Origin: the human T2T-CHM13v2.0 reference genome, Homo sapiens
NCBI RefSeq assembly: GCF_009914755.1
Contig: NC_060941.1
Length of the DNA stretch: 64,000 nt
Strand: one strand, 5' to 3'
Under the pieces are notes generated by a model. The model worked only from the letters and a program-made list of their open reading frames with translations, did not search any database and had not been told where the DNA came from. Within the stretch, counting starts at the first letter, position 1. The number at the start of each line of letters is the position of its first letter. Of this stretch, positions 10,991 through 64,000 are shown piece after piece. Position numbers and translations under genes: made by a program.

Positions 10991-13900
10991 ATGACAAGAT
11001 CAAATTCACACATAACAATATTAACTTTAAATGTAAATGGGCTAAATTCTCCAATTAAAAGACACAGACTGGCAAATTGGATAAAGAGTCAAGACCCATC
11101 AGTGTGCTGTATTCAGGAAACCCATCTCACATGCAGAGACACACATAGGCTCAAAATAAAGGGATGGAGGAAGATCTACCAAGCAAATGGAAAACAAAAA
11201 AAGGCAGGGATTGCAATCCTAGTCACTGATAAAACAGACTTTAAACCAACAAAGATCAAAAGAGACAAAGAAGGCCATTACATAATGGGAAAGGGATCAA
11301 TGCAACAAGAAGAGCTAACTATCCTAAATATATATGCGCCCAGTACAGGAGTACCCAGATTCATAAAGTAAGTCCTTAATGACCTACAAAAAGACTTAAG
11401 ACTCCCACACAATAATAATGGGAGACTTTAACACCCCACTGTCAACATTAGACAGATAAACAAGACAGAAAGTTAACAAGGATATCCAGGAATTGAACTC
11501 AGCTCTGCACCAAGCAGACCTTGTAGACATCTACAGAACTCTCCACCCCAAATCAACAGAATATACATTCTTTTCAGTACCACACCACACCTATTCCAAA
11601 ATTGACCACATAGATGGAAGTAAAGCATTCCTCAGCAAATGTAAAAGAACAGAAATTATAACAAACTGTCTCTCAGACCACAGTGCAAGCAAACTAGAAC
11701 TCAGGATTAAGAAACTCACTCAAAACCACTCAACTACATGGAAACTGAACAACCTTCTCCTGAATGACTACTTGGTGCACATCAAAATGAAGGCAGAAAT
11801 AAAGATGTTCTTTGAAACCAACGAGAACAAAAACACAACATACCAGAATCTCTGGGACACATTCAAAGCAGTGTGTAGAGGGAAATTTATAGCACTAAAT
11901 GCCCACAAGAGAAAGCAGGAAAGATCTAAAATTGACATCCTAACACCACAATTAAAAGAATTAGAAAAGCAAGAGCAAACACATTCAAAAGCTAGCAGAA
12001 GGCAAAAAATAACTAAGATCAGAGCAGAACTGAAGGAAATAGAGACACAAAAAACCCTTCAAAAAATTAATGAATCCGGGAGTTGCTTTTTGAAAAGATC
12101 AACGAAATTGATAGACCGTTAGCAAGACTAATAAAGAAGAAAAGAGAGAAGAATCAAATAGACGCAATAAAAAATGATGAAGGGGCTATCATCACCGATC
12201 CCACAGAAATACAAACTACCATCAGAGAATACTACAAACACCTCTACACAAATAAACTAGAAAATCTAGAAGAAATGGATAAATTCCTTGACACATACAT
12301 CCTCCCAAGACTAAACCAGGAAGTTGAATCTCTGAATAGACCAATCACAGGCTCTCAAATTGAGGCAATAATCAATAGCTTACCAACCAAAAAAAGTCCA
12401 GGACCAGATGGATTCACAGCCGAATTCTACCAGAGGTACAAAGAGGAGCTGATATCACTCCTTCTGAAATTATTCCAATCAATAGTAAAAGAGGGAATCC
12501 TCCCTAACTCATTTTATGAGGCCAGCATCATCCTGATACCAAAGCCTGGCAGAGACACAACCAAAAAAGAGAATTTTAGACCAATATCCTTGATAAACAT
12601 CAATACAAAAATTCTCAATAAAATACTGGCAAACCGAATCCAGCAGCACATCAAAAAGCTTATCCACCATGATCAAGTGGGCTTCATCCCTGGAATGCAA
12701 GGCTGGTTCAACATATGCAAATCAATAAATGTAATCCAGCATATAAACAGAACCAAAGACAAAAACCACATGATTATCTCAATAGATGCAGAAAAAGCCT
12801 TTGACAAAATTCAACAACCCTTCATGCTAAAAACTCTCAATAAATTAGGTATTGATAGGACGTATCTCAAAATAATAAGAGCTATCTATGACAAACCCAC
12901 AACCAATATCATACTGAATGGGCAAAAACTCGAAGCATTCCCTTTGAAAACAGGCACAAGACAGGGATGCCCTCTCTCACCATTCCTATTCAACATAGTC
13001 TTGGAAATTCTGGCCAGGGCAATCAGGCAGGAGAAGGAAATAAAGGGTATTCAATTAGGAAAAGAGGAAGTCAAATTGTCCCTGTTTGCAGATGACATGA
13101 TTGTATATCTAGAAAACCCCATCGTCTCAGCCCAAAATCTCCTCAGGCTGATAAGCAACTTCAGCAAAGTCTCAGGATACAAAATCAATGTACAAAAGTC
13201 ACAAGCATTCTTATACACCAATAACAGACAAACAGAGAGCCAAATCATGAGTGAACTCCCATTCACAATTGCTTCAAAGAGAATAAAATACCTAGGAATC
13301 CAACTTATAAGGGATGTGAAGGACCTCTTCAAGGAGAACTACAAACCACTGCTCAATGAAATAAAAGAGGACACAAACAAATGGAAGAACATTCCATGCT
13401 TATGTATAGGAAGAATCAATATCATGAAAATGAGCATACTGCCCAAGGTAATTTATAGATTCAATGCCATCCCCATCAAGCTACCAATGACTTTCTTCAC
13501 AGAATTGGAAAAAACTACTTTAAAGTTCATATGGAACCAAAAAAGAGCCTGCATCGCCAAGTCAATCCTAAGCCAAAAGAAAGCTGGAGGCATCACGCTA
13601 CCTGACTTCAAACTATACTACAAGGCTACAGTAACCAAAACAGCATGGTACTGGTACCAAAACAGAGATATAGATCAATGGAACAGAACAGAGCCCTCAG
13701 AAATAACGCTGCATATCTACAACTATCTCATCTTTGACAAACCTGACAGAAACAAGCAATGGGGAAAGGATTCCCTATTTAATAAATGATGCTGGGAAAA
13801 CTGGCTAGCCATATGTGGAAAACTGGCTAGCCACATGTAGAAAGCTGAAACTGGATTCCTTCCTTACACCTTATACAAAAATCAATTCAAGATGGATTAA

Positions 13901-14824
13901 AGACTTAAACGTTAGACCTAAAACCATAAAAACCCTAGAAGAAAACCTCAGCATTACTATTCAGGACATAGGCATGGGCAAGGACTTCATGTCTAAAACA
14001 CCAAAAGCAATGGCAACAAAAGCCAAAATTGACAAATGGGATCTAATTAAACTAAAGAGCTTCTGCACATCAAAAGAAACTACCATCAGAGTGAACAGGC
14101 AACCTACAGAACAGGAAAAAATTTTTGCAACCTACTCATCTGACAAAGGGCTAATATCTAGAATCTACAATGAACTCAAACAAATTTACAAGAAAAAAAC
14201 AAACAACCCCATCAAAAAGTGGGCAAAGGATATGAACAGACAACTTCTCAAAAGAAGACATTTATGCAGCCAAAACACACGTGAAAAAATGCTCACCATC
14301 ACTGGCCATCAGAGAAATGCAAATCAAAACCACAATGAGATACCATCTCACACCAGTTAGAATGGCAATCATTAAAAAGTCAGGAAACAACAGGTGCTGG
14401 AGAGGATGTGGAGAAATAGGAACACTTTTACACTGTTGGTGGGACTGTAAACTAGTTCAACCATTGTGGAAGTCAGTGTGGCGATTCCTCAGGGATCTAG
14501 AACTAGAAATACCATTTGACCCAGCCATCCCATAATCCAAAGGATTATAAATCATGCTGCCATAAAGACACATGCACACATATGTTTATATCGTCAATAT
14601 TCACAATAGCAAAGACTTGGAACCAACCTAAATGTCCAACAACGATAGACTGGATTAAGAAAATGTGGAACATACACACCATGGAATACTATGCAGCCAT
14701 AAAAAATGATGAGTTCATGTCCTTTGTAGGGACATCAATGAAACTGGAAACCATCATTCTCAGCAAGCTATCGCAAGGACAAAAAACCAAACATCGCATG
14801 TTCTCACTCATAGATGGGAATTGA
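10991..14824 (+). pseudogene. L1 ORF2p (endonuclease/RT), disrupted
   Basis: EN start MTRSNSHITILTLNVNGLN; RT motifs QGCPLSP and FADD; stops at 11371 and 13789 plus several frameshifts. Confidence 0.95.
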
Positions 14825-61510: not shown

Positions 61511-64000
61511 TTTTTTTTTTATCATTATACTTTAAGTTTTAGGGTACATGTGCACAATGTGCAGGTTAGTTACATATGTATACATGTGCCATGCTGCTGC
61601 ACTGCACCCACTAACTCGTCATCTAGCATTAGGTATATCTCCCAGTGCTATCCCTCCCCCCTCCCCCCACCCCACAACAGTCCCCAGAGTGTGATGTTGC
61701 CCTTCCTGTGTCCATATGTTCTCACTGTTCAATTCCCACCTATGAGTGAGAATATGCGGTGTTTGGTTTTTTGTTCTTGCGATAGTTTACTAAGAATGAT
61801 GATTTCCAATTTCATCCATGTCCCTACAAAGGACATGAACTCATCATTTTTTATGGCTGCATAGTAGTCCATGGTGCATATGTGCCACATTTTCTTAATC
61901 CAGTCTATCATTGTTGGACATTTGGGTTGGTTCCAAGTCTTTGCTATTGTGAATAGTGCCACAATAAACATACGTGTGCATGTGTCTTTATAGCAGCATG
62001 ATTTATAGTCCTTTGGGTATATACCCAGTAATGGGATGGCTGGGTCAAATGGTATTTCTAGTTCTAGATCCCTGAGGAATCGCCACACTGACTTCCACAA
62101 TGGTTAACTAGTTTACAGTCCCACCAACAGTGTAAAAGTGTTCCTATTTCTCCACATCCTCTCCAGCACCTGTTGTTTCCTGACTTTTTAATGATTGCCA
62201 TTCTAACTGGTGTAAGATGATATCCCATTGTGGTTTTGATTTGCATTTCTCTGATGGCCAGTGATGGTGAGCATTTTTTCATGTGTGTTTTGGCTGCATA
62301 AATGTCTTCTTTCGAGAAGTGTCTGTTCAGGTCCTTCGCCCACTTTTTGACGGGGTTGTTTGTTTTTTTCTTGTAAATTTGTTTGAGTTCATTGTGGATT
62401 CTGGATATTAGCCCTTTGTCAGATGAGTAGGTTGTGAAAATTTTCTCCCATTCTGTAGGTTGCCTGTTCACTCCGATGGTAGTTTCTTTTGATGTGCAGA
62501 AGCTCTTTAGTTTAATTAGATCCCATTTGTCAATTTTGGCTTTTGTTGCCATTGCTTTTGGTGTTTTAGACATGAAGTCCTTGCCCATGCCTATGTCCTG
62601 AATAGTAATGCTGAGGTTTTCTTCTAGGGTTTTTATGGTTTTAGGTCTAACGTTTAAGTCTTTAATCCATCTTGAATTGATTTTTGTATAAGGTGTAAGG
62701 AAGGAATCCAGTTTCAGCTTTCTACATGTGGCTAGCCAGTTTTCCACATATGGCTAGCCAGTTTTCCCAGCACCATTTATTAAATAGGGAATCCTTTCCC
62801 CATTGCTTGTTTCTGTCAGGTTTGTCAAAGATGAGATAGTTGTAGATATGCAGCGTTATTTCTGAGGGCTCTGTTCTGTTCCATTGATCTATATCTCTGT
62901 TTTGGTACCAGTACCATGCTGTTTTGGTTACTGTAGCCTTGTAGTATAGTTTGAAGTCAGGTAGCGTGATGCCTCCAGCTTTCTTTTGGCTTAGGATTGA
63001 CTTGGTGGTGTGGGCTCTTTTTTGGTTCCATATGAACTTTAAAGTAGTTTTTTCCAATTCTGTGAAGAAAGTCATTGGTTGCTTGATGAGGATGGCATTG
63101 AATCTATAAATTACCTTGGGCAGTATGGCCATTTTCACGATATTGATTCTTCCTACCCATGAGCATGGAATGTTCTTCCATTTGTTTGTATCCTCTTTTA
63201 TTTCATTGAGCAGTGGTTTGTAGTTCTCCTTGAAGAGGTCCTTTACGTCCCTTGTAAGGTGGATTCCTAGGTATTTTATTCTCTTTGAAGCAATTGTGAA
63301 TGGGAGTTCACTCATGATTTGGCTGTTTGTCTGTTATTGGTGTATAAGAATGCTTGTGATTTTTGCACATTGATTTTGTATCCTGAGACTTTGCTGAAGT
63401 TGCCTATCAGCTTAAGGAGATTTGGGGCTGAGACGATGGGGTTTTCTAGATATACAATCATGTTGTCTGCAAATAGGGACAATTTGACTTCCTCTTTTCC
63501 TAATTGAATACCCTTTATTTCCTTCTCCTGCCTAATTGCCGTGGCCAGAACTTCCAACACTATGTTGGATAGGAGTGGTGAGAGAGGGCATCCCCGTCTT
63601 GTGCCAATTTTCAAAGGGAATGCTTCCAGTTTTTGCCCATTTAGTATGATATTGGCTGTGGGTGTGTCATAGATAGCTCTTACTATTTTGAGATATGTCC
63701 CATCAATACCTAATTTATTGAGAGTTTTTAGCATGAAGGTTGTTGAATTTTGTCAAAGGCCTTTTCTGCATCTATTGAGATAATCATGTGGTTTTTGTCT
63801 TTGGTTCTGTTTATATGCTGGATTACATTTACTGATTTGTGTATATTGAACCAGACTTGCATCCCAGGGATGAAGCCCACTTGATCATGGTGGATAAGCT
63901 TTCTGATGTGCTGCTGGATTCGGTTTGCCAGTATTTTATTGACGATTTTTGCATCGATGTTCATCAAGGATATTGGTCTAAAATTCTCTTTTTTGGTTGT
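61511..64000 (-). mobile_element. LINE-1 3' portion, L1PA2/L1PA3-like, continuing past the window; ORF2 disrupted
   Basis: Poly(A) at 61511-61520; 3' UTR (minus strand) 'ctaatgctagatgacgagttagtggg...taactaacctgcac'; ORF2 fragments with frameshifts and FADD changed to FADN. Confidence 0.96.

What the first reader, a model, noticed from the sequence alone, without database searches (positions are those of the whole stretch)
13557..63005. Gene-conversion tract shared by two inverted L1s ~48 kb apart; candidate inversion substrate around the TLK2 retrocopy
Seen: by manual comparison, 13557-14111 (+) is the reverse complement of 62451-63005 with only 2 mismatches in 555 bp (at 13789 and 14088). 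Both copies carry the same 22-bp tandem duplication, ggaaaactggctagcca(t/c)atgt x2 (13795-13838 and 62724-62767), including the same internal t/c difference. Both also share a 3-bp deletion (SQKKAGG instead of the usual SQKNKAGG) and atypical residues (KLDSFL, NLSITI, FCTSKET). Just outside the tract they diverge sharply (RACIAK vs RAHTTK, CLCIG vs [14 protein letters not shown] vs TEWEKIFTT), and their 3' UTRs look like different subfamilies (L1PA4 vs L1PA2/3). The 22-bp duplication frameshifts ORF2, so inheritance from a shared active source element is unlikely. Inference: the two loci paired ectopically and one overwrote the other; several tract bases resemble the younger subfamily, so the right-hand L1 may be the donor. 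Established: converted inverted repeats mark NAHR-mediated, often recurrent inversions. A crossover here would flip ~48 kb containing the TLK2 retrocopy and the CTCF site, with breakpoints short reads cannot resolve.
Basis: partly seen in the sequence, partly recalled or inferred. Interest (0 to 1): 0.8.

Follow-up and report, generated by a model that had tools for sequence, protein, structure and literature searches.

The report
Gene conversion between two inverted L1s
Two old, oppositely oriented L1 retrotransposons 46 kb apart in an ASIC2 intron have copied a 555-base stretch from one to the other, a real but ordinary kind of repeat-to-repeat repair event, and nothing here shows that the DNA between them has ever flipped.

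Summary
Window 13557-14111 is the reverse complement of 62451-63005 with 2 mismatches in 555. The two full-length L1s are 93.4% alike over 6226 aligned columns. No permutation of their 384 differences reached such a span (0 of 100,000).

The tract carries a 3-bp deletion, a 22-bp duplication and 6-8 rare substitutions. This combination was found in none of 71 other L1 copies. The flanks have 1 such shared rare site in 1746.

Non-allelic gene conversion is therefore the best explanation. It is recent: one private change per copy since the event.

The 22-bp duplication is not unique. Its junction occurs at 20 places genome-wide, as independent recurrent duplications.

The younger right-hand L1 is the likelier donor of the core. 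The 3' edge site 14109 contradicts this.

No sign of inversion was found. The right L1 keeps a perfect 12-bp target-site duplication, and neither element shows a subfamily or age swap. The pair is a plausible NAHR substrate, but this is untested.

This is a new member of a known kind, of modest interest.

The parts
8878..15070 (+). LEFT full-length L1 (older sublineage), poly-A ending at 15070
   Evidence: The pairwise alignment with RIGHT runs over 6226 columns. 5' start and poly-A end were read. Its best genome relatives are 94-95% (3' flank) and 96% (ORF2 5' part).
61489..64000 (-). RIGHT full-length L1 (younger sublineage). It continues outside the window to about 67673.
   Evidence: Extension fetched as L081 and aligned. 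Ends were read. Its best genome relatives are 97%.
13557..14111 (+). Conversion tract, LEFT copy (555 bp)
   Evidence: 2 mismatches in 555. Bounded by differences at 13556 and 14112. Permutation test 0 of 100,000.
62451..63005 (-). Conversion tract, RIGHT copy (555 bp)
13795..13838 (+). 22-bp tandem duplication in LEFT. The units differ at one T/C site, and the ORF2 frame shifts here.
62724..62767 (-). The same 22-bp tandem duplication in RIGHT
13579..13580 (+). Site of the shared 3-bp deletion (LEFT coordinates; RIGHT counterpart near 62982-62983)
   Evidence: Both copies are gapped where 24 of 24 and 71 of 71 other copies have bases. Among the 38 other scored candidates, only two places on C1 match the 64-mer without a length difference.
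13550..13556 (+). Cluster of 4 substitutions in 7 bp abutting the 5' edge of the tract
   Evidence: Only 17 of 6220 seven-column windows in the pair are this dense.
14112..14127 (+). Cluster of 5 substitutions in 16 bp abutting the 3' edge of the tract
   Evidence: 55 of 6211 sixteen-column windows are this dense.
14350..14533 (+). Possible second converted patch (RIGHT counterpart 62031-62213). It has 0 substitutions and one 1-bp indel.
   Evidence: Permutation P is about 0.01. Unresolved.
61473..61484 (-). 3' target-site duplication of RIGHT (AACAAATAAATG). Its 5' partner lies at 67674-67685, outside the window.
   Evidence: The perfect 12-bp match shows that both ends of RIGHT belong to one insertion.
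15071..61488 (.). 46.4-kb interval between the convergent L1s. It holds TLK2P1, lncRNA exons and RefSeq enhancer/silencer features, according to the hub's annotation table.
   Evidence: Coordinates. Annotation from the hub's table supplied with the finding, not checked here.

Best explanation
Two independently inserted, full-length, convergently oriented L1PA elements lie 46.4 kb apart in an ASIC2 intron. They are LEFT (8878-15070, +, older) and RIGHT (61489-about 67673, -, younger). They paired ectopically, and a double-strand-break repair event copied about 555 bp of ORF2 3' sequence from one into the other without exchange of flanks. This is non-crossover, non-allelic gene conversion.

What was copied (shown): the donor's own post-insertion mutations, namely a 22-bp slippage duplication that had already acquired one T/C difference, a 3-bp deletion and 6-8 rare substitutions.

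Direction (inferred): the core of the tract (at least 13883-13954) most likely went RIGHT to LEFT. My probability for this is about 0.65.

Boundaries (inferred): both edges coincide with dense mismatch clusters. This fits heteroduplex extension being stopped by mismatches.

Timing (inferred): the event is recent relative to the elements, at about one tenth of RIGHT's private mutation load. That is of the order of 1-4 million years under recalled substitution rates.

Orientation (shown for this assembly only): the CHM13 haplotype is in the original, uninverted orientation.
For: - Divergence contrast: 2 of 555 differences in the tract against 384 difference events in 6226 columns overall. 0 of 100,000 permutations reach the observed span.
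- Shared rare states (both copies carry a state found in at most 10% of 24 young reference copies): 6 of 533 tract sites against 1 of 1746 flank sites.
- Against 71 copies, 13729 C and 13950 A occur in 0. 13949, 13749, 13958 and 14070 occur in 2-4 copies each, never together. The 3-bp deletion occurs in 0 of 71.
- Whole-genome searches with the 555-mer, a 61-mer and a 64-mer give 100% only at the two loci. The next best for the 555-mer is 94% (40 best candidates scored in each).
- No third donor: the junction pattern search found 20 places. No other junction-bearing copy aligned over at least 500 tract positions exceeds 94.4% identity to the tract.
- Independent insertions: the L1 flanks are non-homologous, and RIGHT has its own perfect 12-bp target-site duplication.
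- No crossover signature. At 16 diagnostic 3' UTR sites LEFT keeps the older state at 13 and RIGHT the younger state at 15. LEFT's relatives are 94-96% and RIGHT's 97% on both sides of the tract.
- Polarity: 13883, 13910 and 13954 are C, C, T in the tract. They are T, T, A in 10 of 10 nearest LEFT relatives and C, C, T in 10, 12 and 9 of 12 RIGHT-type copies.
- Edges: 4 substitutions in 7 bp at 13550-13556 and 5 in 16 bp at 14112-14127.
Against: - Polarity is not clean. 14109 is G in both copies. That is the LEFT-type state, seen in 7 of 8 LEFT-type copies and in 0 of 12 RIGHT-type copies.
- Three LEFT-type copies (L061, L066, L070) already carry one to three of the 'RIGHT-type' core states. 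The succession of states is therefore not strictly linear.
- The shared-rare load of the tract (6 of 533, 1.1%) is below both private loads in the flanks (LEFT 44 of 1746, RIGHT 35 of 1746).
- Only one assembly was examined. No ape orthologue, read data or second human haplotype could be consulted, so the acceptor's pre-conversion state and the correctness of the assembly are inferred.
- Each genome search scored only the 40 best of 302-9888 candidates.
- The edge-cluster argument uses thresholds chosen after seeing the data.
Confidence: 0.88

Rival explanations
1. Lineage marker. Both L1s descend from one L1 sublineage that already carried the 22-bp duplication, the 3-bp deletion and the unusual residues. 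No exchange between the loci occurred.
For: The duplication junction is not private. It occurs at 20 places genome-wide with at most 3 mismatches, 4 of them exact, and in 9 full or near-full 81-bp matches.
Against: - Independent insertions from one source would be uniformly diverged. Here the flanks differ by about 6% and the tract by 0.36%.
- The other junction-bearing copies aligned over at least 500 tract positions are 81.9-94.4% identical to the tract and belong to various sublineages. L046 reached 97.8%, but over only 135 aligned positions.
- Several carry a locus-specific variant in both units (L038, L041, L045, L047, L049, L050). This points to separate in-situ duplications.
- 0 of 71 copies share the deletion or combine the rare variants.
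- The 3' UTRs of the two elements belong to different sublineages.
Confidence: 0.02
2. Assembly or polishing artefact. The 555-bp patch was written from one L1 into the other during assembly of T2T-CHM13.
For: None from the calls. It cannot be excluded, because no reads or second assembly were available.
Against: - The two copies still differ at 2 sites inside the tract, one private to each.
- The tract has sharp edges within otherwise locus-specific sequence.
- Inference from general knowledge: long reads span a 6-kb L1 into unique flanks.
Confidence: 0.03
3. Conversion accompanied by crossovers. The interval has inverted and re-inverted (an even number of NAHR events), or is inverted on other human haplotypes, and the tract is the scar.
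For: - The pair has the architecture of known L1-flanked inversions: inverted full-length arms more than 90% alike.
- Passages of preprint 10.1101/2021.12.20.472354 report that 21 of 22 inversion-flanking L1 pairs exceed 90% identity and that 6 of 22 are full-length pairs.
- Passages of PMC2603318 report retrotransposon-mediated inversions of up to 81 kb.
- The tract now provides 298- and 232-bp perfect blocks. The next longest anywhere in the pair is 108 bp.
Against: - RIGHT's target-site duplication is intact.
- There is no subfamily or age swap on either side of the tract.
- The exchange is non-reciprocal: the copies are identical, not swapped.
- Identity of 93.4% is below the median of 97.2% and 46 kb is above the median of 5.6 kb for L1-flanked inversions (same preprint, passages).
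- No matching row was found in two supplement tables. That search used GRCh38 coordinates recalled from memory and is inconclusive.
Confidence: 0.07
4. Chimeric insertion. Reverse transcriptase switched templates, so one L1 was born carrying a piece of the other's transcript.
For: None from the calls.
Against: The tract would then be as old as the younger insertion. It should carry about 2% private changes per copy, as the flanks do (35 of 1746 for RIGHT). Observed is 1 of 533 per copy.
Confidence: 0.01

Closest known systems
Non-allelic (interlocus) gene conversion between dispersed transposable elements
   Same: - A short non-reciprocal tract (about 0.5 kb) homogenises two paralogous repeats on one chromosome and carries several linked mutations across together.
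- Passages of PMC6598467 describe this for Alu elements, with dependence on distance and identity.
- Passages of PMC1920257 cite L1-templated double-strand-break repair (Tremblay et al. 2000) and describe an intrachromosomal conversion into an L1 (locus NCLI34).
   Different: - The partners are full-length L1PA elements of different sublineages, only about 94% alike and 46 kb apart. PMC6598467 reports the elevated Alu rates at distances under 10 kb.
- The donor and acceptor loci can both be named.
- The tract edges coincide with mismatch clusters.
Inverted L1-pair (NAHR) mediated inversions
   Same: Inverted full-length L1PA arms more than 90% identical flank a unique interval of tens of kb. 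See passages of preprint 10.1101/2021.12.20.472354, PMC2603318 and preprint 10.1101/2024.04.18.590093.
   Different: - No inverted allele and no chimeric L1 or swapped target-site duplication is seen here.
- Identity is lower and the interval larger than the medians reported for L1-flanked inversions.
Interlocus gene conversion in segmental duplications
   Same: The same signature is used for detection: a patch of excess identity with shared variants inside diverged paralogues. This is based on search-listing abstracts only (PMC3790853, PMC4467073).
   Different: The paralogy here comes from two separate retrotransposition events, not from a duplication of the locus.

Membership tests
Non-allelic gene conversion tract | A segment with significantly less divergence than the flanking paralogous sequence | tested here: met
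   2 of 555 differences against 384 of 6226 columns. 0 of 100,000 permutations reach the span.
Non-allelic gene conversion tract | Locus-private (post-insertion) variants shared by the two copies only inside the segment | tested here: met
   6 of 533 tract sites against 1 of 1746 flank sites. Deletion in 0 of 71 other copies, and the combination of rare variants in 0 of 71.
Non-allelic gene conversion tract | Non-reciprocal transfer with flanking markers left in the parental configuration | tested here: met
   The copies are identical rather than swapped. Subfamily sites and relative ages are unchanged on both sides. RIGHT's target-site duplication is intact.
Non-allelic gene conversion tract | The acceptor's orthologue in an outgroup lacks the tract | not testable with these tools
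   No ape or second human assembly is available.
NAHR-mediated inversion flanked by inverted repeats | Inverted repeats of high identity at both ends of the interval | tested here: met
   6.2-kb arms, 93.4% identical, with 298- and 232-bp perfect blocks.
NAHR-mediated inversion flanked by inverted repeats | Chimeric repeats or swapped target-site duplications showing a crossover | tested here: not met
   RIGHT has a perfect 12-bp target-site duplication at both ends. No subfamily or age swap.
NAHR-mediated inversion flanked by inverted repeats | Both orientations observed among haplotypes or species | not testable with these tools
   Only one assembly is available. The catalogue look-ups found nothing, but they relied on recalled GRCh38 coordinates.
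L1 sublineage defined by the 22-bp duplication | The marker co-occurs with the other tract variants in several unlinked copies | tested here: not met
   18 other junction places were found. Those aligned over at least 500 tract positions are at most 94.4% identical to the tract. Locus-specific variants occur in both units at several loci. 0 of 71 copies share the deletion.

The most novel reading that the evidence does not exclude
The conversion created the only perfect-identity blocks in this L1 pair longer than about 110 bp (298 and 232 bp). By recalled estimates, not checked here, the minimal identical stretch needed for efficient mammalian homologous recombination is roughly 130-450 bp.

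The 46-kb interval (TLK2P1, lncRNA exons, and annotated enhancers and a silencer inside an ASIC2 intron) may therefore be a young, human-specific, recurrent or polymorphic inversion site that short reads cannot see.

The mixed polarity (RIGHT-type core, LEFT-type 14109) and the possible second patch at 14350-14533 could be the footprint of one long heteroduplex (about 980 bp) repaired patchily in both directions.
Probability: 0.07. Interest if true: 0.5.

Novelty: new member of a known kind. Interest (0 to 1): 0.3.

Why it matters
It is a clean, datable example in which both partners of an L1-to-L1 gene conversion can be named and the transferred mutations listed.

Practical consequences:
- L1 copies dated or classified by divergence can be mosaic. 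Here a 555-bp stretch of one element has the history of another.
- The 22-bp duplication is a recurrent mutation and should not be used as a lineage marker.
- Conversion raises local identity between inverted repeats and so could raise the risk of NAHR in an ASIC2 intron. That risk is hypothetical until haplotype data are examined.

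Tried and rejected
- **Uniqueness of the duplication junction.** Rejected. It occurs at 20 places, with 0 for the reversed-pattern control. 18 of the 20 are clean 22-bp tandem duplications; L039 is not one and L048 is doubtful.
- **Polarity from overall distances.** Uninformative. Both sublineages are 3.6-4.3% from the tract.
- **A likelihood ratio (about 80:1 for RIGHT as donor) worked out by hand from the counts.** Abandoned, because the diagnostic sites changed at different times and are not exchangeable.
- **Inversion catalogues.** The Cell 2022 inversion paper is not held, and supplements of the bioRxiv version are closed. Supplements of PMC6467913 and PMC9675761 were searched for numbers beginning 3404-3406 and 3409-3411. 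No chr17 row appeared among the passages shown, and only the first two occurrences per term are shown. The GRCh38 position was worked out from ASIC2 coordinates recalled from memory, so this is inconclusive.
- **Literature search for 'inversion', 'ASIC2', 'polymorphic inversion'.** It returned one unrelated Drosophila paper.
- **PRDM9-like 13-mer (motif recalled from memory).** It matches only the G-rich 3' UTR tracts of both L1s, about 780 bp from the tract. This is not taken as evidence of a hotspot.
- **Second patch at 14350-14533.** Suggestive (P about 0.01) but not claimed.

Full report
**1. The observation**

Window 13557-14111 and the reverse complement of 62451-63005 differ at 2 of 555 positions: 13789 A/G and 14088 A/G. 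An independent repeat search finds the same arms inside a 1015-nt inverted pair at 97%.

In a gapped alignment of the in-window parts (2517 columns, 144 differing), 100-bp windows score 91-96% in most of the flanks and 99-100% inside the tract. The exceptions are 14357-14506 (99-100%, section 5) and 14457-14595 (80-85%, spanning an 11-bp indel). The nearest outside differences are at 13556 and 14112.

- The 22-bp unit is doubled at 13795-13838 and 62724-62767, with the same T/C difference between units.
- Both copies lack 3 bp after 13579.
- The quoted peptides are present, and the reading frame changes across the duplication.

**2. The two elements**

I fetched 4.2 kb beyond the window and aligned the whole elements.
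- The alignment has 6226 columns at 93.4% identity, with only two indels of 5 bp or more.
- LEFT is 8878-15070 on the + strand. RIGHT is 61489 to about 67673 on the - strand.
- Both are full length and convergent (3' ends facing), with 46.4 kb between them.
- Homology stops at the L1 ends.
- RIGHT has a perfect 12-bp target-site duplication, AACAAATAAATG, at 61473-61484 and 67674-67685. LEFT has a weaker one, CACCATC.

They are therefore two separate insertions, not a duplicated segment.

LEFT is the older. Its best genome relatives are 94-95% identical in the 3' part and 96% in the ORF2 5' part. RIGHT's are 97% in both (40 best candidates scored of 8119, 9888, 6418 and 3551).

**3. More than chance, and not shared ancestry**

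Permuting the 384 difference events over the 6226 columns never produced a span of 555 with at most 2 differences (0 of 100,000; largest 336).

I compared both copies with 24 young L1 copies from the same genome. I counted sites where LEFT and RIGHT agree on a state that at most 10% of the others carry.

| Region | Shared rare sites |
|---|---|
| Tract | 6 of 533 |
| Three flank segments | 0 of 995, 1 of 237, 0 of 514 |

In the same flanks, LEFT has 44 and RIGHT 35 private sites of 1746.

Against 71 copies:
- 13729 C and 13950 A occur in none.
- 13949, 13749, 13958 and 14070 occur in 2-4 copies each, never in the same copy.
- The 3-bp deletion occurs in none.

Whole-genome searches with the 555-mer, a 61-mer over 13949-13958 and a 64-mer over the deletion give 100% only at the two loci. 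In one search, two places on C1 match without a length difference, at 97% and 95%.

Uniformly diverged copies of one source cannot give this mosaic. Neither can a chimera formed at insertion, because the tract has 1 private change per copy where about 10 would be expected from the flanks.

**4. The duplication is not private**

- An 81-bp query finds 7 further full or near-full matches.
- The 29-base junction pattern finds 20 places with at most 3 mismatches, 4 of them exact, against 0 for the reversed control.
- 18 of the 20 are clean 22-bp tandem duplications.

These sit in L1 copies of various ages. Copies aligned over at least 500 tract positions are 81.9-94.4% identical to the tract. L046 aligned over only 135 positions and is not counted.

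Several (L038, L041, L045, L047, L049, L050) carry a locus-specific variant in both units. This means the duplication arose in place after that variant.

The unit is bounded by an imperfect 9-bp direct repeat (GGAAAACTG ... AGAAAGCTG or AGAAAACTG). Replication slippage is therefore the likely cause (inference).

It does not rescue the lineage-marker explanation. It also excludes a third donor, since none of the other junction-bearing loci resembles the tract.

**5. Direction, extent and time**

I split the young copies by 3' UTR into LEFT-type (8) and RIGHT-type (12). This gives 6 diagnostic sites in the tract.

| Site | Tract state | Reading |
|---|---|---|
| 13597 | G | Fits both elements once intermediates are considered |
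| 13675 | T | Fits both elements once intermediates are considered |
| 13883 | C | RIGHT-type; 10 of 12 RIGHT-type copies |
| 13910 | C | RIGHT-type; 12 of 12 |
| 13954 | T | RIGHT-type; 9 of 12 |
| 14109 | G | LEFT-type; 0 of 12 RIGHT-type copies |

- All 10 nearest relatives of LEFT's 3' flank have T, T, A at 13883, 13910 and 13954. This favours RIGHT as donor of the core.
- Against it, three LEFT-type copies (L061, L066, L070) already carry some of the 'RIGHT-type' core states.
- I put RIGHT-to-LEFT for the core at about 0.65. More relatives could not be fetched.

Both edges abut dense mismatch clusters:
- 4 substitutions in 7 bp at 13550-13556. Windows this dense number 17 of 6220.
- 5 substitutions in 16 bp at 14112-14127. 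Windows this dense number 55 of 6211.

This fits heteroduplex extension stopping at mismatches. The thresholds were chosen after seeing the data.

A further stretch, 14350-14533, has no substitution between the copies and no private site in either. The reference copies differ by 3.0% there. Permutation P is about 0.01. It may be a second patch of the same event, and I leave it open.

Since the event, each copy has gained one private change in the tract: 13789 in LEFT and 14088 in RIGHT. That is about one tenth of RIGHT's private load. With recalled substitution rates of 0.5-1 x 10^-9 per site per year, this gives roughly 2-4 million years, with wide Poisson limits. With a recalled age of about 12 My for RIGHT's subfamily, it gives about 1 million years. 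Both figures are inferences.

**6. Inversion**

Nothing in this assembly shows one. A crossover inside the L1s would join LEFT's 5' part to RIGHT's 3' part and separate each element from one of its target-site duplications. What is seen instead:
- RIGHT keeps both halves of its 12-bp duplication.
- At 16 diagnostic 3' UTR sites LEFT has the older state at 13 and RIGHT the younger state at 15.
- The age difference is the same on both sides of the tract.

CHM13 therefore carries the original orientation, or an even number of flips.

The pair does fit the known architecture of L1-flanked inversions:
- In passages of preprint 10.1101/2021.12.20.472354, 22 of 132 NAHR-type balanced inversions are flanked by L1 pairs. 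21 of the 22 pairs exceed 90% identity (median 97.2%), 6 of 22 are full length, and the median inversion size is 5.6 kb.
- Passages of PMC2603318 report 49 human-chimpanzee inversions caused by inverted L1 or Alu pairs, ranging up to 81 kb.
- Passages of preprint 10.1101/2024.04.18.590093 report 8 L1 pairs among 45 repeat-bordered inversions.

The tract now supplies perfect blocks of 298 and 232 bp, where the next longest in the pair is 108 bp. This makes the locus a candidate only. Look-ups in two supplement tables found no matching row, but they depended on recalled GRCh38 coordinates.

**7. Comparison and verdict**

Non-allelic gene conversion between transposable elements is established. 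Passages of PMC6598467 describe it for Alu elements, with dependence on distance and identity. Passages of PMC1920257 cover L1-templated break repair and an intrachromosomal conversion into an L1.

This is a well-resolved new example involving two named full-length L1PA loci 46 kb apart. It is not a new kind of event.

- The gene-conversion reading is supported.
- The uniqueness argument is wrong.
- The donor call is weakly supported.
- The inversion is untested speculation.

Noticed in passing
window 13795-13838 and 62724-62767; loci L031-L050: A 22-bp tandem duplication at one spot in the 3' part of L1 ORF2 recurs at about 16 other unlinked L1 copies of different ages. Several carry a locus-specific variant in both units. 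The unit is bounded by an imperfect 9-bp direct repeat, so this looks like a slippage hot spot rather than a lineage marker.
   Followed up: partly
window 14350-14533 (RIGHT 62031-62213): The two L1s show no substitution over 183 aligned bases, and neither copy has a private site there, although other young copies differ by 3.0% in this stretch. Only a 1-bp indel at 14458 separates the copies. Permutation P is about 0.01. It may be a second conversion patch.
   Followed up: partly
window 13550-13556 and 14112-14127: Both edges of the tract abut unusually dense mismatch clusters: 4 substitutions in 7 bp and 5 in 16 bp. Windows this dense number 17 of 6220 and 55 of 6211 in the pair.
   Followed up: partly
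window 14885-14897 (-) and 61656-61668 (+): A PRDM9-type degenerate 13-mer (motif recalled from memory) matches the G-rich 3' UTR tract of both L1s. The window has 7 matches against 1.4 expected from shuffles. No link to the tract was shown.
   Followed up: no
window 41544-43812: A third, much older L1 fragment is 71-78% complementary to RIGHT (pairs I2, I5, I8-I11). It takes no part in the tract.
   Followed up: no
G000:C1:159924771-159924834 and C1:80338848-80338911: Two other L1 copies match the 64-mer across the 3-bp deletion without a length difference, at 97% and 95%. The same 3 bp may have been lost independently there. The sequences were not fetched.
   Followed up: no
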